This document shows positions 1 through 19,011 of a stretch of DNA of 64,000 nt, piece by piece. Every line of letters begins with the position of its first letter. The stretch's first letter is position 1. This stretch comes from a virus, in IMG/VR virus record IMGVR_UViG_3300042559_000447, positions 7,662-71,661 of that record; one strand, given 5' to 3'. The notes under the pieces were generated by a model, which saw nothing but the letters and a program-made list of their open reading frames with translations, was not told the DNA's origin and ran no database searches. Position numbers and translations under genes: made by a program.

Positions 1-960
1 GGTCGCAGCAAGTGATGGAACACCGTTGTTGTTGTAGTACCACTTAAGTTTGTTGGTTGTGATGTTGTCTTCTCCAAGTAACTTGTCGATATTGTCTGGA
101 GTTAGCTTTTTGATTTCTTCTAACTGTTCGCTAGTCAATTGACGGCTGTAGTAAGGATTAGAAATTACCTCACCTGGAGTTACCCAATCAATCTTACCTG
201 AAAATCTAGCACCTTCGTTTAAATCGTCATCAAAGGTGTTATCCCAGATCAAGTTGTAAGGGAGTATAATTTTCTTTACCTGCTTTTTGTTTACGATTAG
301 GTTTTCGATTCCGACAACCCCACCCAAAAGCGTATAGAAGAATGCTTGTTTATATTTATCTAAGAACCTGTTTCTGTGCAAGATATCCATAACCATGTCA
401 TATGCTACTTCTTCGCCTTGTTGTTTGTAGTCATACTGCATGAATCTCATTACATCTTCAGGCATTTCAAAGTCTTGTTTGCCTAATGGGTTAACTGAAA
501 CCCCCATATCTTTTTCCATTTCTTCAAAGATGTTCTTGAACTCTGTCTTCAACAAAGCAATAGTCATCTGAAGAGTCTTTTTGTTTACTGCGGTTCTTGA
601 AATAGCCTTAGTTGTAGGTTCGATATTTTCGATCATCTTAATACCAGTACCCAACATAAAGTCGATCATCGATGTCAACTTTTGTCCAGCTATCCATACT
701 GTAGGAAGTTCGCAACCGGTCTGGTCTTGAGTGGTATAGTAGTAGTCTCTGTTTTCCTGTTTGCCTAGGTAATACGTAAACATACGAAGCATTTCATCAA
801 TTGGCTTATCATAGTTTACAGTATTATTTCTAAATCCAAGAGAGTTGAATTGAGTATTATACTTAGATGCCACATATCTAACGTTCTCCGCAAACCATTC
901 CTGGTCTTTTTTATTTTCGGGGACGAACTGATTTGGTTGCTCTCTGAGGTCGTGTCTCAT
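1..960 (-). CDS. Portal protein, N-terminal part (runs off window start; absent from ORF track)
   Basis: Open frame from ATG at 960 (MRHDLREQPNQFVPENKKDQEWFAENVRY...) to position 1; resembles crAss-like/Bacteroidota podovirus portal N-termini; upstream TATATTTG box. Confidence 0.7.
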   Translation of the reverse strand, partial: MRHDLREQPNQFVPENKKDQEWFAENVRYVASKYNTQFNSLGFRNNTVNYDKPIDEMLRMFTYYLGKQENRDYYYTTQDQTGCELPTVWIAGQKLTSMIDFMLGTGIKMIENIEPTTKAISRTAVNKKTLQMTIALLKTEFKNIFEEMEKDMGVSVNPLGKQDFEMPEDVMRFMQYDYKQQGEEVAYDMVMDILHRNRFLDKYKQAFFYTLLGGVVGIENLIVNKKQVKKIILPYNLIWDNTFDDDLNEGARFSGKIDWVTPGEVISNPYYSRQLTSEQLEEIKKLTPDNIDKLLGEDNITTNKLKWYYNNNGVPSLAAT

Positions 961-972
961 GTTATTTAAATA

Positions 973-980
973 CAAATATA
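973..980 (-). promoter_or_regulatory. Bacteroidota -7 promoter box for portal/late operon
   Basis: TATATTTG on minus strand, 12 nt before portal ATG. Confidence 0.65.
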
Positions 981-1021
981 CAATTTTTTATCAACATTGC
1001 AACAGATTACGAAATTTGTAT

Positions 1022-1029
1022 TATATTTG
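1022..1029 (+). promoter_or_regulatory. Bacteroidota -7 promoter box, divergent from portal promoter
   Basis: TATATTTG with TTG upstream at ~997. Confidence 0.6.
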
Positions 1030-1386
1030 CAAAAAACAAAGTAAAAATAAGGACCTGATGTCGGACGGTGAATTACGGTGGCGGCCTCAGAAACGACTCT
1101 ACCACGGGAACCCAATAAAGAGTCAACTCCGGTACTAAGACATGGGGAGTAGATTGGGTGGGAGGCACAACTCTCAAAAGCAGATGTCACGTTGTAGCAC
1201 TTGTGTGATTGACTACAATTTCTGAAAGGGGTATACGAAGCAAGTATATAAGCCAAGAAGAAGGTGAAAACTCATACTGTGGGTATGGGGAAGTATTCGT
1301 ACTCTTCTTCTTGGGATACCAAAGCAAGCTAATTACTAGTAATTGTATTAAAATGTACTAAAAATGTATTTAAGAATGTATTTTAT

Positions 1387-1899
1387 ATGCAAAAAGACCC
1401 TAAAATTGTGAAAAAATCACAAAAAATGCTTTCGATCAATGAAATATTTGAACTTAAGCCATCAGAGTTTGTACCAACAATCCTAAAACAGGGCAGAGCA
1501 ACAAACGTACAGCAGCAAATGTTGCTTAGAGCCAAGCGCAAACTATTCCTTTTGGCTCGTGATAAGTTCTATGAAAGCATCACCCGGAACGTTTTGAACA
1601 ACACAGACTACTTGAAGAACAAACACAACATGACTTTTGAGGAGTTTGATAGGTACGTTTCAAAAAACACGGTGATAAATAACATATCTAAGTACGATGC
1701 CAACACGATCAGGAAAGGATTCACTAGGCTTTCTGATGCCTATGAGTTTGCTTTTGTAGTTGGCTATGCTTTTAACGTGGACACCGACATCCTTTTACAC
1801 CAAAATCTAGAATACTTAGATATGAAAGGCTTTGTAAGTGACTTTAAACAGTACGCTGCTAATGTTGAGGACATGAAAAAACTCAATAAAATGACATAA
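1387..1899 (+). CDS. Hypothetical protein, possibly DNA-binding
   Basis: 170-aa ORF, preceded by AATGTA repeats. Confidence 0.6.
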   Translation: MQKDPKIVKKSQKMLSINEIFELKPSEFVPTILKQGRATNVQQQMLLRAKRKLFLLARDKFYESITRNVLNNTDYLKNKHNMTFEEFDRYVSKNTVINNISKYDANTIRKGFTRLSDAYEFAFVVGYAFNVDTDILLHQNLEYLDMKGFVSDFKQYAANVEDMKKLNKMT

Positions 1900-1927
1900 C
1901 TGTGACAATTGAACTAAATTTATAAAC

Positions 1928-1935
1928 TATATTTG
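1928..1935 (+). promoter_or_regulatory. -7 promoter box 4 nt before ATG
   Basis: TATATTTG-AATT-ATG. Confidence 0.6.
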
Positions 1936-1939
1936 AATT

Positions 1940-2236
1940 ATGGAACTAAAAGGAAAACTAGAAAGAGTAAAATCACGAGAAGTCGCAAGACGGATTGGTG
2001 ACGAGCTTGTTCCTACTATGCGTAAAGAAATCAATGTGTGGAAGTGCTGCGATATGATCCTAAAGTGTTTGGCTGTAGGAAAAGTAGAAGAAGCCGTAGA
2101 GATGTGTAACGTGTTATACAGAGAGAACACCATTGACCCAGTATCTGAGAATTTCTCAGACGTTAAAAGCAAGAAAATCAACGAGACCAGAAACATTGTA
2201 AACTTTTTTATCAGAGAAATATATAAAACCAATTAA
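1940..2236 (+). CDS. Hypothetical protein
   Basis: 98-aa ORF in operon. Confidence 0.6.
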   Translation: MELKGKLERVKSREVARRIGDELVPTMRKEINVWKCCDMILKCLAVGKVEEAVEMCNVLYRENTIDPVSENFSDVKSKKINETRNIVNFFIREIYKTN

Positions 2237-2247
2237 TTTAAAATAAT

Positions 2248-2880
2248 ATGGCATTCGGAAAAAACACAAACTCACTTTACTTTTCTGTTAGAAATGGTAA
2301 GGTAATGCGCTACTCAAAAACGCAGGAAGACGGAACTACAGTAATCCCAACCAAAGAGGGTCAACCAAGATTTTATTTTGTTTACGATTACATTGAGGGT
2401 TTGATCACCGGTTTCAGAACCAAAGAGGGAGAAATCATGGGTAAAACCAAAATGTTCTTTCAGATTTCTATGTCTGATAACGGAGAGAACTACACTGTAG
2501 AATTAGATGTAGACTCAAATTATTTCAGAGCGTTTGCAATGACAGTATTGTCTGCTGATTCAAATCATCCTGTAAGACTTGCGCCATTCCAAAGAGAAGA
2601 GAACGGTGTAAAGAAAACAGGCTTATTTGTTATTCAGCACGGTAAGCCCTGCAAGTACAAGTACACCAAAGAGAATCCAGGTAACATGCCTGACATCGAG
2701 GTGACTAAGAACAAAAAAGGAGAGATCGTTGATGTAGATAGTGAAAAAAGAAATCATTTCTTGTTCAGTGAATTGAACACTTGGTTATCAGAAGCTATCG
2801 GTATGTCTTCTAAAACTTTCAAGGCTCCTGTAGTTTCTGAAAGTGAATTTGATGACATGGACTCAGATCTTCCATTTTAA
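2248..2880 (+). CDS. Putative single-stranded DNA-binding protein
   Basis: Beta-rich, acidic tail ending DDMDSDLPF, next to YqaJ nuclease. Confidence 0.6.
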   Translation: MAFGKNTNSLYFSVRNGKVMRYSKTQEDGTTVIPTKEGQPRFYFVYDYIEGLITGFRTKEGEIMGKTKMFFQISMSDNGENYTVELDVDSNYFRAFAMTVLSADSNHPVRLAPFQREENGVKKTGLFVIQHGKPCKYKYTKENPGNMPDIEVTKNKKGEIVDVDSEKRNHFLFSELNTWLSEAIGMSSKTFKAPVVSESEFDDMDSDLPF

Positions 2881-2882
2881 TC

Positions 2883-3146
2883 ATGGCATCTAGAAAGATT
2901 CAAAATACTGAGTTAGCCAATCAGATTGCTGGGGTTTTGCAAAAAAGTGCAGAACCTTCGGCTTCTGAAGCCCCAACACACATTAAGCACTACCGCAACG
3001 AACAGCAGGCTATCATTAGACAGAGTTGTTTAAAGTCTGCTGTGCAGTTGATGGAAAGTAAGATAAACGGCAAAAGCAACATGCAGACTGCCATTCAAAA
3101 CACATTAGAAATTGCCGAGATATTCGAGGCTTGGGTAAACAGATGA
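2883..3146 (+). CDS. Hypothetical protein
   Basis: 87 aa with IIRQSCLKSA motif common in phage proteins; ATGA overlap with next gene. Confidence 0.6.
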   Translation: MASRKIQNTELANQIAGVLQKSAEPSASEAPTHIKHYRNEQQAIIRQSCLKSAVQLMESKINGKSNMQTAIQNTLEIAEIFEAWVNR

Positions 3147-4135
3147 TAAGACTAGTTAACATTGACAAAGAAAAAGACTACGACGGGTGGTTAAACTTTC
3201 GTAGTTCTGGTATCGGTGCTTCCGATGTGGGAACGATATTGGGCTTGAACCCATATAAATCATCTGCTGAACTATTCTATCAAAAGATAGGAAAGATCCC
3301 ACAGAAGATCCAGGAGAACTTGGCCATGTTTATGGGAACAAGGATGGAGCCATTAGTTGCTAGTCTTTGGGAGTACTATGACGTTGATGAGGACAAGATG
3401 ATCCAAAACTACAACACCGGTGTGAAAACAAGACACGGTTCTGAGATTGTGGGATACTTGATCAACGACAAATACCCTCACTTGTTCTTTTCCCCCGACC
3501 GTCTTATTTGTAATAATTCTAAATTACCTGCTTATAGTATTGATGGTGACATAGTTAGCCTAGATAATGTAAGGGGTATCTTGGAGATAAAGACCATTAG
3601 TGGGTTTGCCAGTAAGCAGTGGGAGGGTGGAGTACCGCCTTCATACGTGACGCAGCTGATGACATACTTGATGGGCTTGGAACTTAATTATGGCGAGATC
3701 GCCTTTTTTGAGGACGGTCGTAAGTTAAATGTCATAGAAATGTCATTTAATGAGTCAATTGGGTCTCAGATCCTACAAAAAACAACCGAATTCTGGGAAA
3801 GAGTACAAGGAGCATTAGAAGACATAGAGAACTGCGAATTATACGAACCAGAACCAGACGGAACAGAAGCATACGAATCATTCTTAAACAAGAAGTATTC
3901 ACAGAGCCAAGAGTTAAAGATAAGTGGAACAGACGAGATGTATCAGATAGCCCACAACCACAAGTTAATCTTAGACGAAATAAAAGACAAGGAATACGAA
4001 GCCAGAGAATGCACTAACAGGTTAAAGGACTTCATGGGAGAAGCTGAGGTGTTAGACTTCGGTGATTCTGGAAAGGTAACTTGGAAGAGCACAGTAAAGG
4101 GCAATCGTTTATTCAAAAACTCAATCAAATTATAA
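3143..4135 (+). CDS. YqaJ-like (lambda exonuclease family) recombination nuclease
   Basis: WLxxRxxGIGASD, GxRMEP, SPDR, LEIKT, YxxQLxxY motifs; start moved to ATG 3143. Confidence 0.9.
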   Translation: MIRLVNIDKEKDYDGWLNFRSSGIGASDVGTILGLNPYKSSAELFYQKIGKIPQKIQENLAMFMGTRMEPLVASLWEYYDVDEDKMIQNYNTGVKTRHGSEIVGYLINDKYPHLFFSPDRLICNNSKLPAYSIDGDIVSLDNVRGILEIKTISGFASKQWEGGVPPSYVTQLMTYLMGLELNYGEIAFFEDGRKLNVIEMSFNESIGSQILQKTTEFWERVQGALEDIENCELYEPEPDGTEAYESFLNKKYSQSQELKISGTDEMYQIAHNHKLILDEIKDKEYEARECTNRLKDFMGEAEVLDFGDSGKVTWKSTVKGNRLFKNSIKL

Positions 4136-4136
4136 T

Positions 4137-4391
4137 ATGGAAGGAACTTTAAAAGCAGACGGATTTGACGATGCGATAATCGGTGTAGACTTTAATTACG
4201 AACCGGCAAAGCTAGTGTACAGTAAGCAGGCAATGATCGAGGTGTTAATTGAAGACGGAATGTCTTTGGATGACGCTATTGAGTATTTAGAATACAATGT
4301 ATTTTGTGCATATATCGGAGAAGGTACACCTATTTACATAGACACCGGTACTCCAGGTGAGGTGTTGGATTTATTGGAGGCGTATTCATGA
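4137..4391 (+). CDS. Conserved phage hypothetical protein
   Basis: ADGFDDAIIG...AIEYLEYN...YIGEGTP family common in aquatic phages. Confidence 0.7.
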   Translation: MEGTLKADGFDDAIIGVDFNYEPAKLVYSKQAMIEVLIEDGMSLDDAIEYLEYNVFCAYIGEGTPIYIDTGTPGEVLDLLEAYS

Positions 4392-4633
4392 CACAAAAGA
4401 TACACAAGAAGCAGTACTTAAGGTACATGAAGACCTTTGTCTGGGCGATGAAGAAAAGCGCAGAGGATCTTAATAAGTCTATAGTTGACGGAAGGATGAC
4501 AGACTACCCTGTTGACGCTGTGACGGTGGAAAATGCGATCACTTTGGTGGAGGCAGGAGATTGTTTGCGTGAGACGAGAATGAGTAAGACGGATGTTTAT
4601 GCCATAAAAGAGGCAATGAAACATTTGAATTAG
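4388..4633 (+). CDS. Hypothetical protein
   Basis: ATGA-coupled ORF. Confidence 0.6.
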   Translation: MTQKIHKKQYLRYMKTFVWAMKKSAEDLNKSIVDGRMTDYPVDAVTVENAITLVEAGDCLRETRMSKTDVYAIKEAMKHLN

Positions 4634-4659
4634 TCAAAATAAAGCCGTAAATTGTAGCC

Positions 4660-4992
4660 ATGTCTACTAGATTTTCTTTCGGTGCCGAATTCGTTGAAAC
4701 TGAGCGCACTAACACTGAGGTTACGTTTAAATATGAAAACTTGGTGGTTAAGATCTACAAATCTTGGCTACACGAGTTTGGTGGAATTGTGGGGGAGGAC
4801 TCAGAACCCCTTTATTTCGACCTAACCCCCCACCTAAAAATAATAACCGTAGTAGATAAAACACTAGTAGAAGAGATACTGCCATTCAATACCCTAGACA
4901 AAGCAAAAGACTTCTACAATAACATAACCCCAGACCAAATACTAATCCTATACACAGCAATACTAGCATTCCAAACAGAACTACCAGAATAA
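4660..4992 (+). CDS. Hypothetical protein
   Basis: 110-aa ORF with abrupt codon-usage switch mid-gene. Confidence 0.55.
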   Translation: MSTRFSFGAEFVETERTNTEVTFKYENLVVKIYKSWLHEFGGIVGEDSEPLYFDLTPHLKIITVVDKTLVEEILPFNTLDKAKDFYNNITPDQILILYTAILAFQTELPE

Positions 4993-4993
4993 T

Positions 4994-5323
4994 ATGTTAT
5001 CCAAAGATCAAAAACAAGAAATATTCAACAAGGTATGCGACTACCTACTATTAAAGCCCTATGAAGCAGGTGAACTAAATGTCGCAAATGAGCTGTTTAC
5101 ACGCCATTATATCATCCACGTGGTAGGAATGCCCATAGACGCAGTTATATTGTCCTCAGAGGAAGAAAACGTGGTCTGTTTGACCAAGTATTCATCTCTG
5201 TTCAGAGTGTGGCCGGTAGACAATCGCTGGAACGCCATAAAATTCTTCTTTAAAGCCTGGAGAAAGGGTGCTTATTTTACCCATGTTTCCGTGACTTGGG
5301 AAGAAATCTACAAGTTTGGCTAA
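4994..5323 (+). CDS. Hypothetical protein
   Basis: 109-aa ORF, last gene before non-coding region. Confidence 0.55.
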   Translation: MLSKDQKQEIFNKVCDYLLLKPYEAGELNVANELFTRHYIIHVVGMPIDAVILSSEEENVVCLTKYSSLFRVWPVDNRWNAIKFFFKAWRKGAYFTHVSVTWEEIYKFG

Positions 5324-5442
5324 AAGTTTGTCTCCACCGTGTGCAATTGTGTAAAACATCTGTACAACCTGTTGATAAACGCCCCCATTTTTAAAATATC
5401 CCCCCAACTGCCCCCAGAATTATTACACTGCGCCCAGAATTC

Positions 5443-5470
5443 CCCCCTAATTACCCATAGGGGGTTTTTT
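5443..5470 (+). terminator. Intrinsic terminator
   Basis: CCCCCTA-loop-TAGGGGG followed by TTTTTT. Confidence 0.7.
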
Positions 5471-5760
5471 ATGTCCCCCTGTCCCCCGAGATATATTGTC
5501 CAAATTTAATAGTCGTGCAGGTGGTGGAGTCTAACGCTAGCGGATCGGGTCGATGGCGTCCAAAAAAATAGACCCCCCGTGTCTAATCGAGTGGACACGC
5601 CATTCCAATTTATTGGACAGTGGGCTGCAATTGTCCATTAAAATAGAAAATCGAAACGGCAAATGTCTACTTTATTGGTGTATACTGTGCTATACGAACA
5701 AATGTTAGTTTACCTGAGCGGTCGTATACGAAAAAAGAATGAGATAAACAAGCCCAAAAA

Positions 5761-5912
5761 GAAATGTGACAGAAATGTGACAAAGCATATATATATATAA
5801 GGAACACGCGACGCGCGTATGATACTATCTAACAACCAAACAACCAAATTTGGATCGTCAGTTTAATGTCACATTTTATTATTTTATATAGTTTTGTCAG
5901 AGTTGTGTCACA
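5761..5912. repeat. Direct and inverted AAATGTGACA boxes around an (AT)n and CG-rich core
   Basis: GAAATGTGACA x2 (5761-5782), inverted TGTCACATTT (5867-5876), TGTCACA (5906-5912). Confidence 0.6.
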
Positions 5913-5930
5913 AAAACATTTTTTTAAAAT

Positions 5931-5959
5931 TGTAAGTTATTGATTTTCAATTACTTACA
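5931..5959. promoter_or_regulatory. 29-bp palindrome (operator-like)
   Basis: TGTAAGTTATTGA-TTT-TCAATTACTTACA, one mismatch between arms. Confidence 0.6.
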
Positions 5960-6022
5960 GATTAATTTCAAATTTCTTTAAAAATAATTTAAAAAAGTAT
6001 TTGGTGATTCAACTTCTATACC

Positions 6023-6030
6023 TATCTTCG
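6023..6030 (+). promoter_or_regulatory. Probable early promoter -7 box
   Basis: TATCTTCG (variant of TAnnTTTG) with TTTG at 6000-6003 and AT-rich upstream DNA. Confidence 0.5.
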
Positions 6031-6039
6031 TAGTGTTGA

Positions 6040-6571
6040 AATAGAGTAAAGGAATTCATAAAGGTAGTGAGTAGTAAGTTTAGCCCGCAAGCGAGACCGA
6101 AAAACAGCCGATGGTTGAGGTGGGATTTCTATGTTCGTTTCACAAGTAAGGATAAGGGGTGACCTATCCCGGCAGGGATACCTATGCCTATAAATCTTGG
6201 CAGGTTTGCATACGACCTGGGCGGAAAAAGTATGCAGGTTTTATAAAGTATTGTACCTTACTAGTATGTGAGATATCAGTGTATTGCCTATCGGATAGGA
6301 AACACGCGTGTTGCAGCGTTGACATACTAAACAATAATTGATATATCCGTTGTGCATTAAAACAAATGCAGTGTGTAGACCGATGTCTAATTTATTGGAC
6401 AACTCTATGCTATCGTTAGCCGATAGGGGCAACCGCTTGTAGTAAGCGAGTGTATGTAATAAACCATAATACATACCTGTAGAAGTATGCCTATCCCGTG
6501 TGGGTAGTGTGTATCGTAGTGACCAATCTACTTATTCTATAAATACCTATAATATTTTATCTTATTCTATT
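6040..6571 (+). ncRNA. Candidate large structured ncRNA (~530 nt)
   Basis: No credible ORF; 5' end pairs with 3' end; about ten internal hairpins. Confidence 0.5.
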
Positions 6572-6743
6572 GTTAGGGTGTTGGATATGTTCTGACACCC
6601 CAACAACTATTGGTGTACGTGGTATCTAGCGTTTAATTGTTGACAGGTCAACAGCATCAACTATTTTACCATCGGGGTAGGGACTGAACTATGTCAGTAT
6701 GTGTCGAACGCACCCTATCCCACAACCATAAAACAAAAACATC

Positions 6744-7139
6744 ATGGAAACATCAAAAGTAATTGTGTCTAACAACGGCACTGATTGGGTATTTACCCTA
6801 GAACACGCAAGCAATCGTTCAGTGGACAGATTGCGTAACAGGTTTGCCTATGAATTCATGGCTTATTACGACCTATGCCGCAAAATCAAAGCCAAAGGGT
6901 TTAATGCTACACTCCCCTTTGATTTCAAGATAGTCAGGAACGGGTCTCTTGTGTTGGATACCCAAACTATGATCTCTACTGAGGCTAGACTGACCCTCAA
7001 GTTACAAAACAATGAGGTCGGTCGGGCTAGGTTTATCAACAAATTAAAACTTATCTCTGACTATGCTCACAGACCGACCGATGAGAAGCAATTGCAAGAC
7101 CAACTATTGGGTGAGGCAAAAGCACTATTAACCAAGTAA
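6744..7139 (+). CDS. Hypothetical protein (first early gene)
   Basis: 131-aa ORF with A-rich leader. Confidence 0.65.
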   Translation: METSKVIVSNNGTDWVFTLEHASNRSVDRLRNRFAYEFMAYYDLCRKIKAKGFNATLPFDFKIVRNGSLVLDTQTMISTEARLTLKLQNNEVGRARFINKLKLISDYAHRPTDEKQLQDQLLGEAKALLTK

Positions 7140-7146
7140 TCACCCA

Positions 7147-7199
7147 ACCTACACTACTATAAAGTAGGAGTACTACCTGTTCGAGTCAGGTTGTAGGTT
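7147..7199 (+). ncRNA. Minimal tRNA-like element (acceptor stem, one arm, T-arm)
   Basis: ACCTACA/TGTAGGT stem, CTACT-ATAA-AGTAG hairpin, ACCTG-TTCGAGT-CAGGT T-arm. Confidence 0.6.
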
Positions 7200-7217
7200 C
7201 AACCATAAAACAAAACT

Positions 7218-7400
7218 ATGTCAACCAACATTCATTTCGTGAAGTGTTATGCCGATGCGTATGACCTCACAGACATCAAACAAGCCAGAAAAGTTAAACG
7301 TATGATCAATGCTCGTGAGAGATTTGGTCGCTCATCTAATGGCAAGCAAACCAAGTTAGTTAAATTAGGGTACAAAGGGTTCGATTTCTTATCTAGATAA
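7218..7400 (+). CDS. Hypothetical protein
   Basis: 60-aa basic ORF with A-rich leader. Confidence 0.55.
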   Translation: MSTNIHFVKCYADAYDLTDIKQARKVKRMINARERFGRSSNGKQTKLVKLGYKGFDFLSR

Positions 7401-7402
7401 TT

Positions 7403-7621
7403 ATGGAACGTACTATTAAAGAACTTGCAAAGATCGTGATATTGTTCTTTGCTACCTGTGTATTTACTGCACTGTTTAATGTTATCATCTCCGGGCTTAT
7501 TGCCTTTGTCACATGGTCTTGGATGCCTGACATTATGAGGTCTGAAGGTATACTTGCCTTTACGGTATTGATATTCATTCTCTCTGGTATATTTTCTATA
7601 GCAAGATTAGGAGAAAAATAA
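7403..7621 (+). CDS. Small membrane protein (2 TM)
   Basis: Two hydrophobic segments. Confidence 0.6.
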   Translation: MERTIKELAKIVILFFATCVFTALFNVIISGLIAFVTWSWMPDIMRSEGILAFTVLIFILSGIFSIARLGEK

Positions 7622-7647
7622 AATTGTTGTTTTAGTTCATATGGTTT

Positions 7648-7679
7648 AGCCTCACTCTTTTATTAGGGTGGGGCTTTTT
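7648..7679 (+). terminator. Intrinsic terminator
   Basis: AGCCTCACTCT-loop-AGGGTGGGGCT then TTTT. Confidence 0.6.
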
Positions 7680-7710
7680 ATGTTCTGAGACCCCCAATAA
7701 AAATATTATC

Positions 7711-8013
7711 ATGAAAAAAATAACACAAAAAGCAATTGAAGCATTCTTGAATGCAAAGTCATTCAAAGGGTCAAACACACGAGTAGAAGTGCTACCAAAT
7801 GTTACAGTTCTAAAACTATTTGGTAACGAAATCGCTTATCTTTATAATGATCCAGAACGAACTCTGAGTATAACCAATGCAGGTTGGAAGTCTGTTACCA
7901 CAAAAGAACGTCTCAATGCTATACCAAACGTATCAATTAGACAAATAAAAGGAAACTGGTATCTCAATGGTTTACTTTGGGATGGAAAACTAATCAACAT
8001 TGGAGGCAAATAA
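7711..8013 (+). CDS. Conserved phage hypothetical protein
   Basis: 100 aa, LFGNEIA...GWKSVTTKERLN. Confidence 0.65.
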   Translation: MKKITQKAIEAFLNAKSFKGSNTRVEVLPNVTVLKLFGNEIAYLYNDPERTLSITNAGWKSVTTKERLNAIPNVSIRQIKGNWYLNGLLWDGKLINIGGK

Positions 8014-8015
8014 GT

Positions 8016-8327
8016 ATGAAAAACTACATTGAAAAAGACGGCTATCACTTGAAGGTTCAAGTTGATTACGAAAAAGGCGGCATGAATTATTTCTCAGGTC
8101 AGGAAAGTAGACGTGGGTACTACCTGTATGTATATCCTGTACAATTAGAGACCGTTGACGGTCGAGTTACTATTGAGTCCTTCACTATGTTTAGAGGCGG
8201 CAAGAAATTATTACTCGAAGTTACTCGCCAATCACAAAAGGCTTATGATAAAGCGTGCGCAATGTTACACGAACATCAAGATTTTATAGACAGAATAGAT
8301 AACAAATATAAAAACCAAGAAGTATGA
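8016..8327 (+). CDS. Hypothetical protein
   Basis: Start moved to ATG 8016; YEKGGMNYF...RGYYL. Confidence 0.6.
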   Translation: MKNYIEKDGYHLKVQVDYEKGGMNYFSGQESRRGYYLYVYPVQLETVDGRVTIESFTMFRGGKKLLLEVTRQSQKAYDKACAMLHEHQDFIDRIDNKYKNQEV

Positions 8328-8545
8328 TAAACAAGACAGAACTAAAACCTAACTACAGCCTTTTCGGTGGAAAGGGTGATGTATGGAGTAACACAGCTCA
8401 CATCTACGAGAGCGGTAAAGGTAATCTATGTGGCAAACCTGCACTCAGTACTAACTGGGTTAGAATAGAAGAGATCGAAGTCGCAGGTTGTGAGCATTGT
8501 ATCAAGTTATATAAAGAACAAAACAATTTAATTGAACAAGACTAA
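8324..8545 (+). CDS. Hypothetical protein, possible Zn-binding
   Basis: H...C...CxxC residues. Confidence 0.55.
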   Translation: MINKTELKPNYSLFGGKGDVWSNTAHIYESGKGNLCGKPALSTNWVRIEEIEVAGCEHCIKLYKEQNNLIEQD

Positions 8546-8650
8546 TGCAGAACGCACCTAAAGACCTACTCGATATCATTCATCAACATATCGAATCAGA
8601 GAAAAGATTAAATAAAATCATAGAAGAACTACAAAAAACAATTGAACAAT

Positions 8651-9352
8651 ATGAAAACACTATTGAGCAATGGCAACAGCAACGCCAAGACAAAGAAGAA
8701 TCACAGACCGACCAGGATTCTGTACCTACATCCATCTAATGTAGACGGCAAAGAGATGTGTCCTCATGCGTCCGACGGATGCCGGGCATCATGTCTCAAC
8801 ACTGCCGGTCGTGGGGCATTTAGTAATGTACAACTCGCACGTGTCAATCGTACCAAGTTCTATGTCAATCATAGGCTTGAGTTCTACAACCTATTGCACA
8901 GCGAGATTTTAAAATTCGCACACTCATCTTCGCAGCCTGTCGCTATTCGTCTTAACGGTACATCTGATCAGCCTTTTGTTGAGACCTTAGTTGTGGCTCA
9001 GATGCGTGAGATACCTAGCAATGTTTTCTTCTACGACTATACTAAGAATCCTAAAAAAGCAGGTACTCGTATCCTACCTAGTGGGCATCGTTATACTGTA
9101 GCGTATTCGTATTCAGAGAAAGAGGGTTCTGAGACCCACGCCAAAAATATACTAGCCGACGGTGGTATTGTTGCAGTCGTATTCGACGAACTACCTGCCA
9201 CACATTGGGGTTATCCAGTTGTTGATGGCGATGAGCGAGACGATCTCATGCTAGACATTATGCCTAATATTGGAGGCACTATACTCGGACTCAAAGCAAA
9301 GGGTAAAGCCCGTAAAGATGTATCAGGATTTGTAATTAAATTAAAAAGATAA
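8651..9352 (+). CDS. GP88-like phage protein (radical-SAM-like Cys motif)
   Basis: CPHASDGCRASCL, RLNGTSD, FYDYTK, VDGD, GLKAKG. Confidence 0.75.
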   Translation: MKTLLSNGNSNAKTKKNHRPTRILYLHPSNVDGKEMCPHASDGCRASCLNTAGRGAFSNVQLARVNRTKFYVNHRLEFYNLLHSEILKFAHSSSQPVAIRLNGTSDQPFVETLVVAQMREIPSNVFFYDYTKNPKKAGTRILPSGHRYTVAYSYSEKEGSETHAKNILADGGIVAVVFDELPATHWGYPVVDGDERDDLMLDIMPNIGGTILGLKAKGKARKDVSGFVIKLKR

Positions 9353-9356
9353 TACC

Positions 9357-9713
9357 ATGAATCAAAATTTAGATCAAACATTTAACACCCTGTCAGTGGA
9401 ACTGAACAAGGCAGAGAACTCAATTGCTGATGCGTTGTACCTATGCAACAAAATCAGAAGAACTAACTATTTTCAACAGGAAGAACTACCCTCTTTTGAA
9501 AGTCAAGAACTCACTAGACAAATGTTCATGCAACTCAGAGATGATTTGCTAGACACTATCGAACTAGTAGACCCGGCAGGAATTGTAGAAATAAATACAA
9601 TGATTGACCGTGACAATACTATTAGAATAGATCTTGAGTGGAGTTTGCTTAGAGAGGAACTTGCTGACAAAATATTAAACACCCTTATCAATTATTACAA
9701 CCAAACAAAATAA
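9357..9713 (+). CDS. Hypothetical protein
   Basis: 118-aa ORF. Confidence 0.6.
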   Translation: MNQNLDQTFNTLSVELNKAENSIADALYLCNKIRRTNYFQQEELPSFESQELTRQMFMQLRDDLLDTIELVDPAGIVEINTMIDRDNTIRIDLEWSLLREELADKILNTLINYYNQTK

Positions 9714-9717
9714 CATC

Positions 9718-10632
9718 ATGACAAATTTAAATTCACAAATCGAACAGTTTGAAAAAACTATGGCTCTCCTTATGGAGACAGGTCTTAATTGGGAAATTAA
9801 GAAAGAACAATTCACTCACCCTACTGGGTTGATTACTGATCACTATGGTATCTTTAGATACGATCATGGTTCTGACACCCCCACATCTTGCCTTGGCTCT
9901 GTCAAGGGTAGGTACACAGAGTTATCTAACTTTGATTTAGCCGAGACTATCGTTAAGGCTACCGATTCAATTGGTATCAGTACCAATAGAGGTGGAGAAC
10001 TACAAGGCGGTCGCAAGGTATTCCTTCAGGCACAGCTGCCCGACGAATACATTGGTAAGTCAGGCGTTAAGCGTTGGGTTACTGTACTTAACTCACACGA
10101 TGGTTCATCTTCTATCTCGTTTGGTTCTAGTAACACAGTTGTTGTATGTGAGAATACATTCCATGCCGCACACAAAGAGGGTAGCAGGTTCAGACACACA
10201 GCCTCATCTAAAGAACGTATCGATCAGGCTATCAAAGACTTCCGTCAGACAATCAAAGCCGACGAGCAGATGATGAAAGTATTCCACATCATGTCTGAGC
10301 AGAAGCCTACTGAATCACTGGTTACAAAAGTAATCGAGTCCATGTTTGAGATTGGCTCAGTTAAAGAAAGTGCAGATACCATCTCTACTCGTAAGAAGAA
10401 TCAAGTACTTCAGTTTGCTGAGGCATACAACATCGAACGTCAACTTGAGGGCGATACAGTATGGGGATTGTTTAATGCGGTCACACGTTACACTAATCAC
10501 ATGGTCAGTACGTCTGATAGAAATCAGTACCTTATGACAGGCGGTGGAGCAGACATCAATAACAGCTCATACCAAACTATCTTGGCTTGGTTGGAACAAC
10601 ACACTATGTATAACGATCTTGTAACTATCTAA
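9718..10632 (+). CDS. DUF932 family protein (TIGR03299-like)
   Basis: GLNW, GGRKVF, NSHDGS, VVCENT, RHT, WGLFNAVT. Confidence 0.85.
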   Translation: MTNLNSQIEQFEKTMALLMETGLNWEIKKEQFTHPTGLITDHYGIFRYDHGSDTPTSCLGSVKGRYTELSNFDLAETIVKATDSIGISTNRGGELQGGRKVFLQAQLPDEYIGKSGVKRWVTVLNSHDGSSSISFGSSNTVVVCENTFHAAHKEGSRFRHTASSKERIDQAIKDFRQTIKADEQMMKVFHIMSEQKPTESLVTKVIESMFEIGSVKESADTISTRKKNQVLQFAEAYNIERQLEGDTVWGLFNAVTRYTNHMVSTSDRNQYLMTGGGADINNSSYQTILAWLEQHTMYNDLVTI

Positions 10633-10677
10633 TTAAAATTCAGGGGGGTTTCTGACCCCCCATTTAAAATTAAAACT

Positions 10678-11307
10678 ATGGCAAATCATTGTTGGAACTA
10701 CGCAGTATTCACAGGAAGCGAGTCAGCGTTACAAAAACTTATTGACAACCTCAACAAAGTTAGAGAAGACTTTATCAAAGAACATCGTCCGCTACCGGAA
10801 CAACAGGCTTGGATATACGGACAGAACGGACACATTGTTGCGTTAACTGAAGAACCACCTATCGTTGATGGTATCTTTTCAATTGATCCTTATGATGCTT
10901 ACGGAAGTAAGTGGTATGAGTGTGACTGGGAGGTTGAGGAGGACGACGGAAAGATAAAGTCAGTTACATTACAAGGTTCAAGTGCATGGAGTCCTGCTCA
11001 CCCTTTGTTTGAGAAGATATGTATCAACTACGGCTTGAGTTGTTGGGGTAATTACGATGAGTCAGGCAATGACTTTGCAGGAGACTTTGAGATAACTCCT
11101 AATGGAACTACAACACATAACGAAATGACCTATCGTCAGTACATGGCTACCAATCACCCAGAAGCATTTTGGGAAGACAGAGTTAACGACATAGTTGATG
11201 GGGCATACGATTCTTTCGAGGATGTCCTTGCTGACTTTGAACACGTTGATTGGACACTGACAATGGCAGAGCAATCAGAACTAGAACAATTATTTAATAA
11301 AGATTAA
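10678..11307 (+). CDS. DUF1281/YubB ferredoxin-like protein
   Basis: MANHCWN start, GSKW, SAWSP, YDESG motifs. Confidence 0.65.
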   Translation: MANHCWNYAVFTGSESALQKLIDNLNKVREDFIKEHRPLPEQQAWIYGQNGHIVALTEEPPIVDGIFSIDPYDAYGSKWYECDWEVEEDDGKIKSVTLQGSSAWSPAHPLFEKICINYGLSCWGNYDESGNDFAGDFEITPNGTTTHNEMTYRQYMATNHPEAFWEDRVNDIVDGAYDSFEDVLADFEHVDWTLTMAEQSELEQLFNKD

Positions 11308-11308
11308 T

Positions 11309-11497
11309 ATGCAACTAAGAGAAGGAACTTTAGAAAACGCAGCGGCTTGGTTTGAGTCGTTAGGGTATTCGGTAACATTAAATGAAGCTTATGATACAAT
11401 GTATCTTGAACTTGATGGGTTCTCAGTAGAACTATCTCAATCAGAGATTGTATGTAGAGCCAATCAATGGGTACAACATCTTAAAAGAGAGGATTAA
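11309..11497 (+). CDS. Hypothetical protein
   Basis: Tightly packed small ORF. Confidence 0.55.
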   Translation: MQLREGTLENAAAWFESLGYSVTLNEAYDTMYLELDGFSVELSQSEIVCRANQWVQHLKRED

Positions 11498-11498
11498 T

Positions 11499-11750
11499 AT
11501 GAATGCAATAGAAACCTGTACTATTTACTACAACGAGGTTGAATACGATTGCTATACTGTTTTCACCCCTGATGGCAGTGTGTATGGTATGTCACGAGAT
11601 CCTTACTCTCCATTAGGATTCAACAACTACATCGGAGAATCTGATGAGTATCTACACAGACACCATCTTGGCGAGATAGTACGATTAGAAGATTTAGAAG
11701 CAGATGTAATCAAAGCAATAACACACAGACTAGAACATGAGAACAATTAA
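11499..11750 (+). CDS. Hypothetical protein
   Basis: Start moved to ATG 11499. Confidence 0.55.
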   Translation: MNAIETCTIYYNEVEYDCYTVFTPDGSVYGMSRDPYSPLGFNNYIGESDEYLHRHHLGEIVRLEDLEADVIKAITHRLEHENN

Positions 11751-11985
11751 AATCACAACAACACAACACTACACTAAGACAGCAGTAGTAGAAATTCCAT
11801 TTCCAGATGATATTCACAATTTGGATGAGGTAGCAGACTTTCTATATGACAATGAATATTTGTATAGAGATAAATTAGAAAAAGAATTTGCATCAATTCA
11901 ACCTGAGTTTGATGCAGAACAATCTCGCTACGATGTAATTGAAGAAGTAAAACTAACTAGACATTTATGGGGCGGTACACTATAA
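11737..11985 (+). CDS. Hypothetical protein
   Basis: Small acidic ORF in array. Confidence 0.55.
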   Translation: MRTIKITTTQHYTKTAVVEIPFPDDIHNLDEVADFLYDNEYLYRDKLEKEFASIQPEFDAEQSRYDVIEEVKLTRHLWGGTL

Positions 11986-12133
11986 AAAGAATAGTCTATG
12001 TATCTGAGAATCTCATAAAGTATGGGAAGAAAGAACAACTCAGATCTTTCACTTGTGATTGCGGTGAATCGAAGGCTTTAGAAACTAAACGTACCGTGTG
12101 GGTACAATGTGCAACTTGTAAAAAACAATACCA

Positions 12134-15095: not shown

Positions 15096-15595
15096 ATGAA
15101 ATACCCAGAACTATTTTATTACGACGGAAAAAACGTAGAAGATCTAGCACAGTTCATAGGCTTAGATGAAGATGACTACACAACACAGGAACTTAAAGAT
15201 GGATTGTTTATGCTATTCTTTGATGGTCTGTATGTAGCACCCATGAGTGTGGTAAGATACGACCCAGAGACAGACATGTTAGATTTGTTTGTATATGAGA
15301 AAAGCAACAGATGAAAAAGATATTTAACTACATTAAGATGATTCCACATAACCATGTGGATTGGGTTCCTTTTGAACCAAAACCCATGCCTTACTTTACT
15401 TTAGATGTAGACGCAAGAGATGACTGGTATGCAAGACAACACACAGAACATTGTAAAAAACTAACTCTCAAAAAGCCTCTTAGGGCCAAGATAGATAGAA
15501 CAATTTGGTTTTTGGTTTATTCGTCGTTTATGTTAGGTATTATGTTTCTCACAGAATATCTATTTGAAATGCTGTACAAATATTATCATCCATGA
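15096..15595 (+). CDS. Two hypothetical ORFs (15096-15314; 15311-15595 with C-terminal TM)
   Basis: ATGA-coupled ORFs. Confidence 0.55.
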
Positions 15596-16284
15596 AAAGA
15601 GCAGCGATTTACACAAGGGTATCTCACACTAACCAGGTGGAGGACGGATCATCTATAGAGAATCAAACAGAAAAGTTAAATGCTTTCTGTAAGGTAAAGA
15701 ACTATAAAATAGTTGCAGACCTGAGCGATGCCGGTATCTCTGGTAGAAAGTTTGAAACTCGCCAAAACTTCATGAAGATGATGGATATGGCGAAGAATAA
15801 ACAGATAGACGCTGTAGTTGTTTACTCTCTATCTCGTTTTGGTAGAAACTTAAAGGATACACTTAAGTGGATTGAATATCTAGAGAAGCTAGGGGTATCG
15901 TTCTACACACAAGACTTTCAGGTAGACACCACAACATCTCATGGTAAACTGATGCTTCAAATGATAGCAGCCTTTGCAGAGTTTGAGTCTAATCAGAGAT
16001 CTGAACTTATTACATCTGTAATGTCTCATCTTAAGAAGAACAAGAAAGTGTACTGTGGTCCTACTCCATTAGGCTTTGATAAAGTTGGAGATGATTTGGT
16101 TCCGAACCCCCAGGAACTTTTGATAGTCAGAAGGATTTACCGGATGCGAGAAGAAGGCGATCATCTTGAGGTTATAGCCAATACTCTTAATGATGAAGGC
16201 TTAATTGGTAAAAAGGGTGGGCGGTTTCAGAAGATGACAATATCAAAAATATTAAACAACAGCATTTATAATGAATACAGATAA
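15592..16284 (+). CDS. Serine recombinase (resolvase domain plus short recombinase domain)
   Basis: IYTRVS catalytic Ser, DAGISG, LSRFGR, G-PLGF, IANTLN. Confidence 0.9.
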   Translation: MKRAAIYTRVSHTNQVEDGSSIENQTEKLNAFCKVKNYKIVADLSDAGISGRKFETRQNFMKMMDMAKNKQIDAVVVYSLSRFGRNLKDTLKWIEYLEKLGVSFYTQDFQVDTTTSHGKLMLQMIAAFAEFESNQRSELITSVMSHLKKNKKVYCGPTPLGFDKVGDDLVPNPQELLIVRRIYRMREEGDHLEVIANTLNDEGLIGKKGGRFQKMTISKILNNSIYNEYR

Positions 16285-18660: not shown

Positions 18661-18780
18661 TTAGCCAGCAGGCCACTGGATCGAAAACAAGGAAGCTTCC
18701 CATAAGAACAGCAGACCTTCTGAATCGTTAGTCAGCATAGTTATCAGGTTCTATGGATGCTTAATGCAAAAACCTGGCAT

Positions 18781-18866
18781 ACCAGAGTGGTGGAATTGGT
18801 AGACACATGCGGTGGATTTTAATTGGAATTGCTGCTAAATTACAGGTTCGAGTCCTGTTTCTGGTA
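18781..18866 (+). ncRNA. tRNA-like RNA 1 (Leu-type D arm, anticodon arm replaced by irregular hairpin)
   Basis: ACCAGAG/TTCTGGT; GTGGAATTGGTAGACAC; ACAGG-TTCGAGT-CCTGT. Confidence 0.7.
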
Positions 18867-18867
18867 C

Positions 18868-19006
18868 AAAAAGAATTAGAAGGTAAACGTGAAATGAAGA
18901 ATTGGAGAATAGGAAGCTGATATTAGTATCAGAAGTTCGCTGGGCTACCCATCCAGACTGCTAAGCAGATAAATCCTCTCACCTATAAGGAATCTAATTC
19001 TTTTTT
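18868..19006 (+). ncRNA. Candidate structured RNA with long closing stem
   Basis: AAAAAGAATTAGA pairs with TCTAATTCTTTTT; internal CTGATA/TATCAG, CTGG/CCAG, CTGC/GCAG hairpins. Confidence 0.5.
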
Positions 19007-19011
19007 TAAAT

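What the first reader, a model, noticed from the sequence alone, without database searches (positions are those of the whole stretch)
6040..6571. Candidate ~530-nt ornate ncRNA as the first early transcript
Seen: about 10 nt after a promoter-like box (6023-6030), AATAGAGTAA pairs with TTATTCTATT (6562-6571), AGGTA with TACCT and TAAGT with ACTTA, closing a long basal helix. Inside are many hairpins: TATCCC-GGCA-GGGATA, CAGGT/ACCTG, TAGTATGT/ACATACTA, TGCATT/AATGCA, TGTCTAA/TTGGACA, CTATCG/CGATAG, CGCTT/AAGCG, GTATGTA/TACATAC, several with a recurring CTATC arm and G-U pairs. Known: large phage-associated RNAs of unknown function (ROOL, GOLLD) are of similar scale. Inference: a large ncRNA, possibly a new class, expressed immediately on entry.
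Basis: partly seen in the sequence, partly recalled or inferred. Interest (0 to 1): 0.75.

Follow-up and report, generated by a model that had tools for sequence, protein, structure and literature searches.

The report
Structured leader in phage control region
The proposed 530-base phage RNA is not one closed molecule, but its last third and the 230 bases after it form a chain of sense-strand hairpins kept in related phages, most likely a structured non-coding leader of the next gene block.

Summary
The minimum folding energy (MFE) of 6040-6571 has z -1.08. The 10-bp closing helix is matched in 30 of 300 shuffles. Hairpins with stems of 6 bp or more number 8, against 4.6 expected. No Rfam family matches.

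The interval lies in a 1.42-kb ORF-free region (5324-6743) of a circularly assembled 71.5-kb lake phage with a crAss-type muzzle protein. Only two relatives were found. In them 6040-6404 cannot be aligned, and in the window it shows no excess structure.

From 6405 to 6722, however, sense-strand helices are conserved: 68 pairs, 16 of them compensatory, with column-shuffle z about -10 against -1.2 to +0.3 in coding controls. The chain ends in a Y-shaped element 22 nt before the first ATG.

The left half (5503-6040) looks like a DNA-level origin or operator. My best reading (0.45) is a structured non-coding leader acting in cis. Rivals are an origin with single-strand hairpins and a discrete non-coding RNA (ncRNA) like the early long RNAs of phage phi14:2. 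No expression data exist.

The parts
5324..6743 (.). ORF-free control region of 1.42 kb between a 109-aa gene and a 131-aa gene. It is the largest gap in the genome; the next largest (18661-20033, 1.37 kb) holds the tRNA genes.
   Evidence: ORF lists under table 11, table 4 and TAG=Q; gap list; no Pfam or PHROG hit for its short ORFs beyond one sub-threshold Pfam match, TraS, E 0.048
5443..5470 (+). Terminator-like hairpin CCCCCTAATTACCCATAGGGGG followed by T6. It ends the upstream gene block.
   Evidence: Terminator scan. In G001 I read a comparable hairpin with a T-run after its last upstream ORF by eye in the alignment.
5503..5540 (.). Conserved box A (GTGCAnGTGGTGGAGTCTAACGC); function unknown
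   Evidence: Pairwise alignment with G001; a 25-mer pattern found only G001 in viral contigs and a 21-mer found nothing in genome contigs
5663..5712 (+). Conserved bipartite box B (TGTCTAnTTTATTGGTGTA ... CAAATGTTAG). Degenerate copies lie at 6383-6413 and 6606-6645, all on the + strand.
   Evidence: (repeat families D1, D14). The motif is confined to this region of the genome.
5760..5907 (.). Two direct AAATGTGACA sites (5762, 5773) and two inverted TGTCACA sites (5867, 5906) around an (AT)n plus ACGCGACGCGCG core. This is an iteron- or operator-like array.
   Evidence: (D12, I1, I7). G001 has the same layout with a changed site (AAATGACAAAG twice, plus an inverted TGTCAT).
5910..6040 (.). 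Tract of 80% A+T with a long imperfect hairpin (arms 5914-5928 and 5988-6002)
   Evidence: Composition; inverted repeat I3; window 5900-6049 gives z -3.4 (+) and -3.95 (-). The G001 contig breaks at the matching place.
6040..6404 (+).
   Evidence: Hairpins listed; z of 0 or above in sliding windows; not alignable with G001 (13% column identity, alignment-fold z -1.8)
6405..6520 (+). Conserved hairpin cluster. Helices are 6415-6421/6428-6433, 6434-6438/6444-6448, 6452-6458/6470-6476, and 6485-6490/6509-6514 enclosing 6492-6496/6502-6506 (loop CGUGU).
   Evidence: RNAalifold on window plus G001; helix map; column-shuffle z -4.8 (+) against -3.2 (-); z -5.4 for 6405-6571. Single-sequence z is only -1.28 for the window and -0.47 for G001.
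6576..6601 (+). Hairpin of 10 bp with no U-tract. G001 and L072 carry a different strong hairpin at the same place.
   Evidence: Fold gives -15.1 kcal/mol, z -3.2; three-way alignment
6610..6660 (+). Conserved stem (6610-6616/6654-6660) enclosing the hairpins 6617-6619/6630-6632 and 6638-6643/6648-6653. It overlaps a sigma-70-like TTGACA-16-TATTTT (6640-6667).
   Evidence: It is also in the three-sequence consensus, z -9.0 (+) against -4.25 (-).
6674..6721 (+). Y-shaped element: a 9-bp outer stem GGGGUAGGG/CCCUAUCCC, inner hairpin 6683-6687/6694-6698 and inner hairpin 6700-6703/6709-6712. It ends 22 nt before the ATG at 6744.
   Evidence: 54 of 54 cells paired in three sequences; 5 of 18 pairs changed on both sides against 0-1 in slid controls; fold z -3.07
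7146..7199 (+). Second element with the same Y-shaped fold, followed by the same CAACCAUAAAACAAAA leader before the 60-aa gene
   Evidence: Fold (z -2.0). The covariance model of the first element did not find it, so the likeness is in shape only.

Best explanation
The interval 6040-6571 is not one RNA closed by a basal helix. It is the middle of a 1.42-kb control region that opens a new rightward transcription unit after a terminator-like hairpin at 5443-5470.

The left half (5503-6040) carries DNA-level signals: conserved boxes, two direct and two inverted AAATGTGACA sites around an (AT)n/GC core, and an 80% A+T tract.

From about 6405 to 6722 the sense strand folds into a chain of hairpins whose pairing, more than their sequence, is kept in the two known relatives. 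The chain ends in a Y-shaped three-helix element 22 nt before the first ATG.

Most likely this chain is the structured non-coding leader of the operon that starts at 6744. It would act in cis on its own transcript, by protecting or processing the 5' part, or by controlling read-through and access to the A-rich start region. The recurring CUAUCC:GGRUAG helices may serve as repeated binding modules or offer alternative pairings. The stretch 6040-6404 would be a fast-evolving spacer of that leader.

Shown: absence of coding, conservation, compensatory changes and strand asymmetry. Inferred: transcription, the start point, and action in cis.
For: The region is ORF-free under three genetic codes.

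The window and G001 were aligned by sequence alone over 6405-6745:
- RNAalifold finds 68 pairs, 16 of them changed on both sides and still paired.
- The consensus energy is -59.6 against -20.0 +/- 4.0 for column shuffles, z -9.8, 0 of 200.
- Four other MAFFT settings give z -10.1 to -11.6.
- The same test on 4 windows of the YqaJ coding alignment gives z -1.16 to +0.32 on the + strand and -2.10 to +0.62 on the - strand.
- Slid-partner controls give 0-1 compensatory pairs against 16.

Strand asymmetry:
- The minus strand is weaker (E -38.6, z -4.6).
- By my count from the table, 15 of 136 paired cells are G-U.

Other evidence:
- With the third sequence (L072) over the last 233 columns, z is -9.0 on the + strand against -4.25 on the - strand.
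- In the Y element 54 of 54 cells pair and 5 of 18 pairs are compensatory.
- The MFE of window 6340-6745 has z -3.64, 0 of 100 shuffles.
- All flanking genes are on the + strand, and a terminator-like hairpin precedes the region.
- Precedent: in the crAss-like phage phi14:2 two long intergenic regions of the rightward early arm are transcribed above most genes (bioRxiv 10.1101/2020.03.07.982082, passages read).
Against: - There are no transcript data of any kind.
- No promoter has been identified upstream of 6405.
- A conserved TTGACA-16-TATTTT lies inside the conserved structure at 6640-6667. If it fires, the mRNA starts near 6674 and the hairpins at 6405-6605 lie outside it.
- Only two relatives exist, and one of them covers only the last 230 nt or so, so no proper covariation statistic is possible. 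The tested structure was derived from the same alignment.
- Single-sequence stability of the 6405-6520 cluster is unremarkable (z -1.28 in the window, -0.47 in G001).
- The minus strand also beats its shuffles (z -4.6), so part of the signal is strand-symmetric palindromes.
- Single-stranded DNA hairpins would give the same pattern.
- The G001 sequence was bridged across its contig ends, so bases may be missing at the junction.
Confidence: 0.45

Rival explanations
1. Replication origin. The repeated AAATGTGACA sites bind an initiator and the 80% A+T tract melts. The strand-specific hairpins to its right work as single-stranded DNA signals, for example loading or priming sites for the phage Toprim-DnaB primase-helicase, or as an origin-primer RNA.
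For: - There are two direct and two inverted sites around an (AT)n/GC core followed by an A+T-rich tract. The layout is kept in G001 with a co-changed site sequence.
- The motifs are confined to this region of the genome.
- The left block 5503-5990 shows strand-symmetric conserved pairing, z -3.6 (+) and -3.45 (-), as DNA inverted repeats would.
- A primase-helicase and a DNA polymerase are encoded in the same arm.
- G-T pairs are tolerated in DNA hairpins.
- The likeness to iteron origins with adjacent hairpin signals is recalled, not tested.
Against: - No initiator gene is recognisable next to the region; the neighbours have no informative family hits.
- The hairpin chain runs without a break into the Y element and the start region of the first gene, and a second Y-shaped fold sits between two genes. 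That fits RNA better than an origin.
- GC skew follows gene direction only.
Confidence: 0.2
2. One reading: a discrete, abundant, trans-acting non-coding RNA of 0.4-0.9 kb, a counterpart of the early long non-coding RNAs of phage phi14:2. It would end at the 6576-6601 hairpin, before the promoter of the next operon.
For: - phi14:2 transcribes two long intergenic regions of its early arm at a high level from the earliest time point sampled.
- This phage has a crAss-type muzzle protein (Pfam crAss_MUZ, E 4e-43).
- A strong hairpin occupies the same place in all three sequences just upstream of a conserved promoter-like TTGACA-16-TAyyTT.
- The G001 counterpart (674 nt) folds far better than shuffles, z -5.35, 0 of 20.
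- An earlier scan note describes helix-clamped non-coding modules in the early arm of a soil crAss-like phage (a lead only).
Against: - The MFE of 6040-6571 has z -1.08 and the closing helix is at chance level.
- 6040-6404 is not conserved.
- No U-tract terminator lies within 6040-6640.
- There is no sequence similarity to the phi14:2 intergenic regions.
- The strong structure in G001 (3800-4050) is nearly as strong on the minus strand.
- No Rfam family matches.
Confidence: 0.12
3. Double-stranded DNA palindromes only. The CTATC-type inverted repeats are operator sites for a dimeric DNA-binding regulator, with no role for RNA structure.
For: - Several are perfect palindromes (TATCCC-GGCA-GGGATA, CCTATC-G-GATAGG, CTATCG-TTAGC-CGATAG).
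- The inverted-repeat excess is slightly clearer on the minus strand (9 against 3.8, 4 of 300).
- The CTATCCC word is clustered in both phages.
Against: - Spacing between half-sites varies (1, 4, 5, 5 and about 30 nt).
- In G001 the order of the arms flips (GGGATA...TATCCC).
- Arms change in a compensatory way rather than keeping one recognition sequence.
- 15 of 136 paired cells are G-U (my count), which would be mismatches in duplex palindromes.
- The + strand consensus is 21 kcal/mol better than the minus strand.
Confidence: 0.08

Closest known systems
Early long non-coding RNAs from the long intergenic regions of crAss-like Cellulophaga phage phi14:2 (bioRxiv 10.1101/2020.03.07.982082; passages read)
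   Same: A long ORF-free stretch (0.5-0.7 kb there, 1.4 kb here) inside the rightward, replication-side arm of a podophage with crAss-type virion parts. It is in sense orientation with the flanking genes, and its function is unknown.
   Different: There is no sequence similarity and no expression data here. This phage is only distantly crAss-like: muzzle identity is about 25% and no DFDxD motif was found in its 3405-aa protein. No family model exists to test membership. Which GenBank intervals correspond to the paper's junctions is my inference from the annotation. The paper's supplementary tables could not be seen.
ROOL and GOLLD large RNAs (Rfam families; the names and their phage association are recalled)
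   Same: A size of several hundred nucleotides and an association with phage genomes.
   Different: No cmscan match at gathering score or at E up to 10. No conserved multi-branched core. The first two thirds are not conserved even in the nearest relative.
Cis-acting leader RNA elements of lambdoid phages (HK022 put, lambda nut) (recalled, not tested)
   Same: Hairpin elements in the transcribed leader just downstream of an operon promoter that act on their own transcript. Stems covary while loops stay fixed; here the loops are NNUAUG and NCGAA.
   Different: There is no sequence or shape match, no antitermination factor or downstream terminators have been identified, and the host and polymerase are unknown.
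Iteron-type origins with adjacent hairpin priming signals (for example RSF1010 oriV; recalled, not tested)
   Same: Repeated short sites, a GC-rich core, an A+T-rich tract, then strand-specific hairpins.
   Different: No neighbouring initiator gene is recognisable. The hairpin chain continues into the translation start region of a gene.
Earlier scan note e1-5879767: helix-clamped non-coding modules in the early arm of a soil crAss-like phage
   Same: Gene-free segments in the early arm. The outer helix is kept in relatives while the inside is swapped; here that holds for the Y element at 6674-6721.
   Different: It is a different genome with no sequence link tested. The long 'clamp' proposed for 6040-6571 is not better than chance.

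Membership tests
ROOL / GOLLD / any Rfam family | Covariance-model match at the family's gathering score | tested here: not met
   cmscan of the whole window at gathering score found only two tRNAs, at 18781 and 19416. For 5300-6800 at E up to 10 there were three hits at 9.5-13.6 bits, far below their cut-offs.
   z -1.08, with 17 of 100 shuffles as good. Sliding windows across 6000-6350 give z of 0 or above.
   30 of 300 shuffles give a helix of 10 bp or more. The flanks of the helix have no alignable counterpart in G001.
   6040-6404 cannot be aligned (13% identity). 6405-6571 gives alignment-fold z -5.4, 0 of 200. Only one relative spans it.
Conserved sense-strand RNA structure 6405-6722 | Consensus fold better than column shuffles and than coding controls, with compensatory pairs | tested here: met
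   z -9.8 to -11.6 against -1.16 to +0.32 in coding windows. There are 16 compensatory pairs of 68, against 0-1 when partners are slid. The three-sequence z is -9.0. Caveat: only 2-3 sequences, and the structure was derived from the same alignment.
Conserved sense-strand RNA structure 6405-6722 | A transcript covering it | not testable with these tools
   No RNA run was listed as a holder. The four runs laid were kept only as contigs.
phi14:2-type early long non-coding RNA | Sequence or model similarity to the phi14:2 intergenic regions | tested here: not met
   blastn with word size 7 of 5324-6743 against phi14:2 1-12000 gave only A+T-rich chance matches, best E 0.007 in a coding part.
phi14:2-type early long non-coding RNA | High, early and persistent transcription of the intergenic stretch | not testable with these tools
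   There are no expression data for this uncultured phage.
Iteron-type replication origin | Clustered repeated sites next to an A+T-rich tract, confined to one locus and conserved in relatives | tested here: met
Iteron-type replication origin | Initiator binding and the start of DNA synthesis at the site | not testable with these tools
   This needs replication assays or read-depth profiles from raw reads of infected cells.
Independent gene with an intrinsic terminator | GC-rich hairpin plus U-tract at the 3' end | tested here: not met
   The scan finds + strand terminator-like sites only at 5443-5464 and 5589-5605. The 6576-6601 hairpin has no U-tract.

The most novel reading that the evidence does not exclude
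The right half of this control region encodes a long (0.35-1 kb) sense-strand structured RNA, conserved in a so far unsampled freshwater lineage of crAss-related phages. It would be a counterpart of the abundant early long non-coding RNAs seen in phi14:2. It would be built from repeated CUAUCC:GGRUAG helices and a Y-shaped element that recruit a phage or host factor, for example to take over transcription or RNA decay, or to prime replication at the adjacent iteron and A+T-rich origin.
Probability: 0.3. Interest if true: 0.65.

Novelty: new variant of a known kind. Interest (0 to 1): 0.4.

Why it matters
Long gene-free stretches in the early arms of crAss-type phages are transcribed at very high levels in the one case studied (phi14:2), and nobody knows why. 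This locus gives a second, unrelated example. Here comparative data separate a DNA-level part (repeated sites and an A+T-rich tract) from an RNA-like part (a hairpin chain with compensatory changes and a Y-shaped element right before the first gene). That yields concrete elements to delete or probe.

These are the closing helix, the total count of hairpins and the 530-nt size. The useful signal lies partly outside the given coordinates.

Tried and rejected
**Hidden coding.** Table 4 and TAG=Q open no convincing frame. The short ORFs have no PHROG hit and only one sub-threshold Pfam hit, TraS at E 0.048.

**Known RNA families.** cmscan found nothing at gathering score or at E up to 10. ARAGORN finds tRNAs only near 18.8-19.8 kb.

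**More homologues.**
- blastn against GenBank phages gave only A+T-rich 64-nt matches to Lak phages.
- All 8 viral-contig scans gave a single relative, G001.
- In one search, 7 of the 8 stretches were unrelated hairpins and the eighth was G001.
- The one metagenome scan gave 5 stretches, of which 1 (L072) is a true relative and 4 are chance matches.
- The two genome-contig scans gave nothing.

**Expression.** No RNA holder was listed. Four runs were laid, all kept as contigs. They gave short, nearly identical pieces and no joints or ends of use.

**Extra copies of the Y element.** Covariance model R1 was searched over the window, all of G001 and L072. It found only the three input copies, one of them twice because locus L001 duplicates the window. 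The second Y-shaped fold at 7146-7199 was not detected.

**Virion-polymerase hairpin promoters.** Neither DFD.D nor D.D.D is present in the 3405-aa protein, so I dropped the idea.

**Box A as a tRNA-like 3' end.** Its minus strand reads ...GACTCCACCA, but the pairing I drew for the window does not hold in G001 (by eye) and ARAGORN is silent.

**Bacteroidota-type TAnnTTTG boxes.** They occur at the chance rate, 45 and 46 per strand in 64 kb.

**The 60-aa downstream protein.** The atlas gave no usable hit.

**Earlier notes of this scan.** There was none for this genome or sequence.

**Literature.** Three searches gave only the phi14:2 preprint as relevant. PMC7886860 holds none of the four terms searched.

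Full report
**Context**

The window is bases 7662-71661 of a 71,661-bp virus record. Its 127-bp terminal repeat cuts through a gene and equals a common assembler word length (recalled). I therefore read the record as a circular assembly with unknown physical ends.

Genes run rightward from about 1387 to 34 kb and leftward elsewhere. The rightward arm holds:
- a YqaJ exonuclease, GP88 and DUF932;
- a Toprim-DnaB primase-helicase;
- a family A DNA polymerase;
- a ribonucleotide reductase.

The leftward arm holds tail proteins, a 3405-aa protein and a 1439-aa protein with the crAss muzzle domain (Pfam crAss_MUZ, E 4e-43). That protein is only about 25% identical to gut crAss phages. No cultured phage is close: the best DNA polymerase match is 35%. 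Near-identical DNA occurs in lake-water metagenomes.

**The observation**

As a whole they are not clearly more than chance.
- The MFE of 6040-6571 is -139.4 kcal/mol against -132.6 +/- 6.3 for shuffles, z -1.08, with 17 of 100 shuffles as good. The minus strand gives z -1.78.
- A closing helix of 10 bp or more arises in 30 of 300 shuffles of the two end zones.
- Hairpins with stems of 6 bp or more number 8 against 4.6 +/- 2.0 (25 of 300) on the + strand, and 9 against 3.8 (4 of 300) on the - strand.
- Six of the eight crowd into 6353-6507.
- Sliding windows give z of 0 or above over 6000-6350 and about -1.5 over 6300-6600.
- No Rfam family matches at gathering score or at E up to 10.

**The surroundings**

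The interval sits in a 1.42-kb gap without ORFs (5324-6743) under table 11, table 4 and TAG=Q. The gap's short ORFs hit no protein family beyond one sub-threshold Pfam match. It is the largest gap in a tightly packed genome; the next largest holds the tRNAs.

A terminator-like hairpin with a T-run at 5443-5470 closes the upstream gene block. The region therefore opens a new unit about 4 kb inside the rightward arm. It is not at the arm's beginning, which is the divergent gap at 961-1386.

**Relatives**

Eight scans of viral contigs, one metagenome scan and two scans of prokaryote genomes gave two relatives.
- G001 is a 69.7-kb viral contig with a YqaJ 70% identical in protein. Its ends fall inside the matching gap.
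- L072 is a 2.6-kb metagenome contig that starts about 150 nt before the conserved anchor.

I bridged the ends of G001 in a script. Bases may be missing at that junction, which lies in the most A+T-rich part.

G001 also has a long gap without convincing ORFs, about 1.7 kb up to its homologue of the 60-aa gene. The small flanking genes differ between the two phages; G001 lacks the 131-aa gene. Several non-coding blocks are nevertheless kept. One exact 20-mer is among the 100 exact shared runs of 16 nt or more in the two genomes.

**Left half (5503-6040)**

This part looks like a DNA-level device. It contains:
- conserved box A (5503-5540);
- box B (5663-5712), with degenerate + strand copies at 6383 and 6606;
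- two direct AAATGTGACA sites and two inverted copies around an (AT)n plus ACGCGACGCGCG core;
- an 80% A+T tract.

G001 keeps the layout with a changed site, AAATGACAAAG. Conserved pairing here is equal on both strands (z -3.6 and -3.45), as expected of DNA inverted repeats. This is an origin-like or operator-like array.

This stretch cannot be aligned with G001 (13% column identity, alignment-fold z -1.8) and has no excess structure in the window.

The G001 counterpart does fold strongly (674 nt, z -5.35, 0 of 20). That signal sits in a few perfect hairpins just after the contig junction and is nearly as strong on the minus strand. One of them reads by eye as an intrinsic terminator.

One feature is shared. 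The word CTATCCC is confined almost entirely to this region in the window: 3 of its 4 genome-wide copies lie here, all on the + strand. G001 has 3 copies in its gap. In each case the word forms one arm of a local helix with GGGATA or GGGTAG.

**Last third and beyond (6405-6722)**

Here the comparison is clear. MAFFT alignments made from sequence alone give an RNAalifold consensus of 68 pairs in 14 helices. All 136 cells are paired, and 16 pairs changed on both sides.

| Test | + strand | - strand |
|---|---|---|
| Window + G001, 6405-6745, column shuffles | z -9.8 (E -59.6 vs -20.0 +/- 4.0; 0 of 200) | z -4.6 (E -38.6) |
| Same, four other MAFFT settings | z -10.1 to -11.6 | not run |
| Coding control, 4 windows of the YqaJ alignment | z -1.16 to +0.32 | z -2.10 to +0.62 |
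| Window + G001 + L072, last 233 columns | z -9.0 | z -4.25 |

By my count from the table, 15 of the 136 paired cells are G-U. The signal therefore favours a single-stranded + strand molecule.

The conserved helices are:
- 6415-6433;
- 6434-6448;
- 6452-6476;
- 6485-6514, enclosing 6492-6506 with a fixed CGUGU loop;
- a hairpin at 6576-6601, which has a different sequence in each phage;
- a stem 6610-6616/6654-6660, enclosing two hairpins;
- a Y-shaped element at 6674-6721.

In the Y element the 9-bp outer stem is fixed, the two inner stems are swapped by compensatory changes (5 of 18 pairs; 54 of 54 cells paired), and the loops are kept. It ends 22 nt before the ATG at 6744.

A second stretch at 7146-7199 folds into the same shape before the next gene and is followed by the same A-rich leader. 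The covariance model built from the first element does not find it.

**Reading**

The simplest account is that 6405-6722 is transcribed with the rightward genes as a structured non-coding leader and acts in cis. The stretch 6040-6404 would be a fast-evolving spacer, and 5503-6040 a DNA-level origin or operator.

Points against, told in full:
- There is no expression evidence.
- No promoter is defined upstream of 6405.
- A conserved TTGACA-16-TATTTT lies inside the conserved structure. If it fires, the mRNA would start at the Y element, leaving the upstream hairpins unexplained.
- The sample is two to three sequences.
- The tested structure came from the same alignment.
- The hairpin cluster is not unusually stable on its own (z -1.28 and -0.47).
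- The minus strand also beats its shuffles.
- Single-stranded DNA hairpins next to an origin would look the same.

I therefore hold the leader reading at 0.45, an origin with single-strand signals at 0.20, a discrete trans-acting RNA at 0.12 and duplex operators at 0.08.

**What is known**

The closest precedent is phi14:2. There, two long intergenic regions of the early arm are transcribed above most genes from the earliest time point sampled and do not decline, and their function is unknown (bioRxiv 10.1101/2020.03.07.982082; passages read).

The phi14:2 stretches share no sequence with this region. Which GenBank intervals they are is my inference from the annotation. The paper's supplementary tables, which could fix their coordinates, were not available.

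ROOL and GOLLD membership was tested and not met. I used it only as a lead. The long clamp here fails the chance test, while the Y element does show a fixed outer helix with a swapped interior.

**Verdict**

I rate it a new variant of a known kind (phage non-coding leader or early-region RNA), with moderate interest.

Noticed in passing
window 5503-5540: Box A is 25 of 26 identical between the window and G001, although flanking small genes are not even shared. Its minus strand ends in ...GACTCCACCA like a tRNA or tmRNA 3' end, but ARAGORN finds nothing and the pairing I drew does not hold in G001.
   Followed up: partly
window 18661-20033: The second large ORF-free gap (1.37 kb). It holds tRNA-Ser at 18781-18867, a tRNA seen only by Rfam at 19416-19485, and an odd ARAGORN call with a two-base anticodon at 19674-19765.
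   Followed up: no
window 1040-1340: The divergent gap between the two gene arms holds a G+C-richer stretch with an 11-bp stem (CCAAGAAGAAG/CTTCTTCTTGG). Its folding is not better than shuffles (z -0.92 on the + strand, -1.26 on the - strand).
   Followed up: partly
L074 (phi14:2, KC821624) about 4462-4500: One of the long intergenic regions of phi14:2 contains a stretch that reads like a T-arm plus acceptor 3' strand (GGGGGTTCGAATCCCCCC then GACTCCAC). This may be a tRNA-like or tmRNA-like piece inside the reported non-coding RNA.
   Followed up: no
window 6744-7139 and 7218-7400: The 131-aa gene is absent from G001 and L072. In them the Y-shaped leader directly precedes the homologue of the 60-aa basic protein (conserved GRSSNG and GYxGFDFL). 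In the window each of the two genes has its own Y-shaped fold.
   Followed up: partly
window 5524-5811: A wastewater run labelled RNA-Seq (the tool marks it as probably DNA) holds contigs identical or nearly identical to this part of the control region, outside the lake samples.
   Followed up: no
window 46635-56855: The 3405-aa protein has only a weak ART-PolyVal hit (below Pfam's cut-off) and a PHROG of unknown function. It has neither a DFDxD nor a DxDxD motif, so there is no sign of a crAss-type virion RNA polymerase.
   Followed up: partly
window 15592-16284: A small (230-aa) serine recombinase (Resolvase plus Recombinase domains) sits in the replication arm.
   Followed up: no
L080 (reverse strand) about 3992-4050: An unrelated viral contig uses a hairpin with the same arms (GGGGTAGGG...CCCTATCCCAC), followed by a T-run right after a gene. 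It looks like a plain terminator.
   Followed up: partly
G000 1-127 and 71535-71661: The 'direct terminal repeat' is 127 bp and cuts through a gene. It looks like an assembly overlap, so the physical genome ends are unknown.
   Followed up: partly
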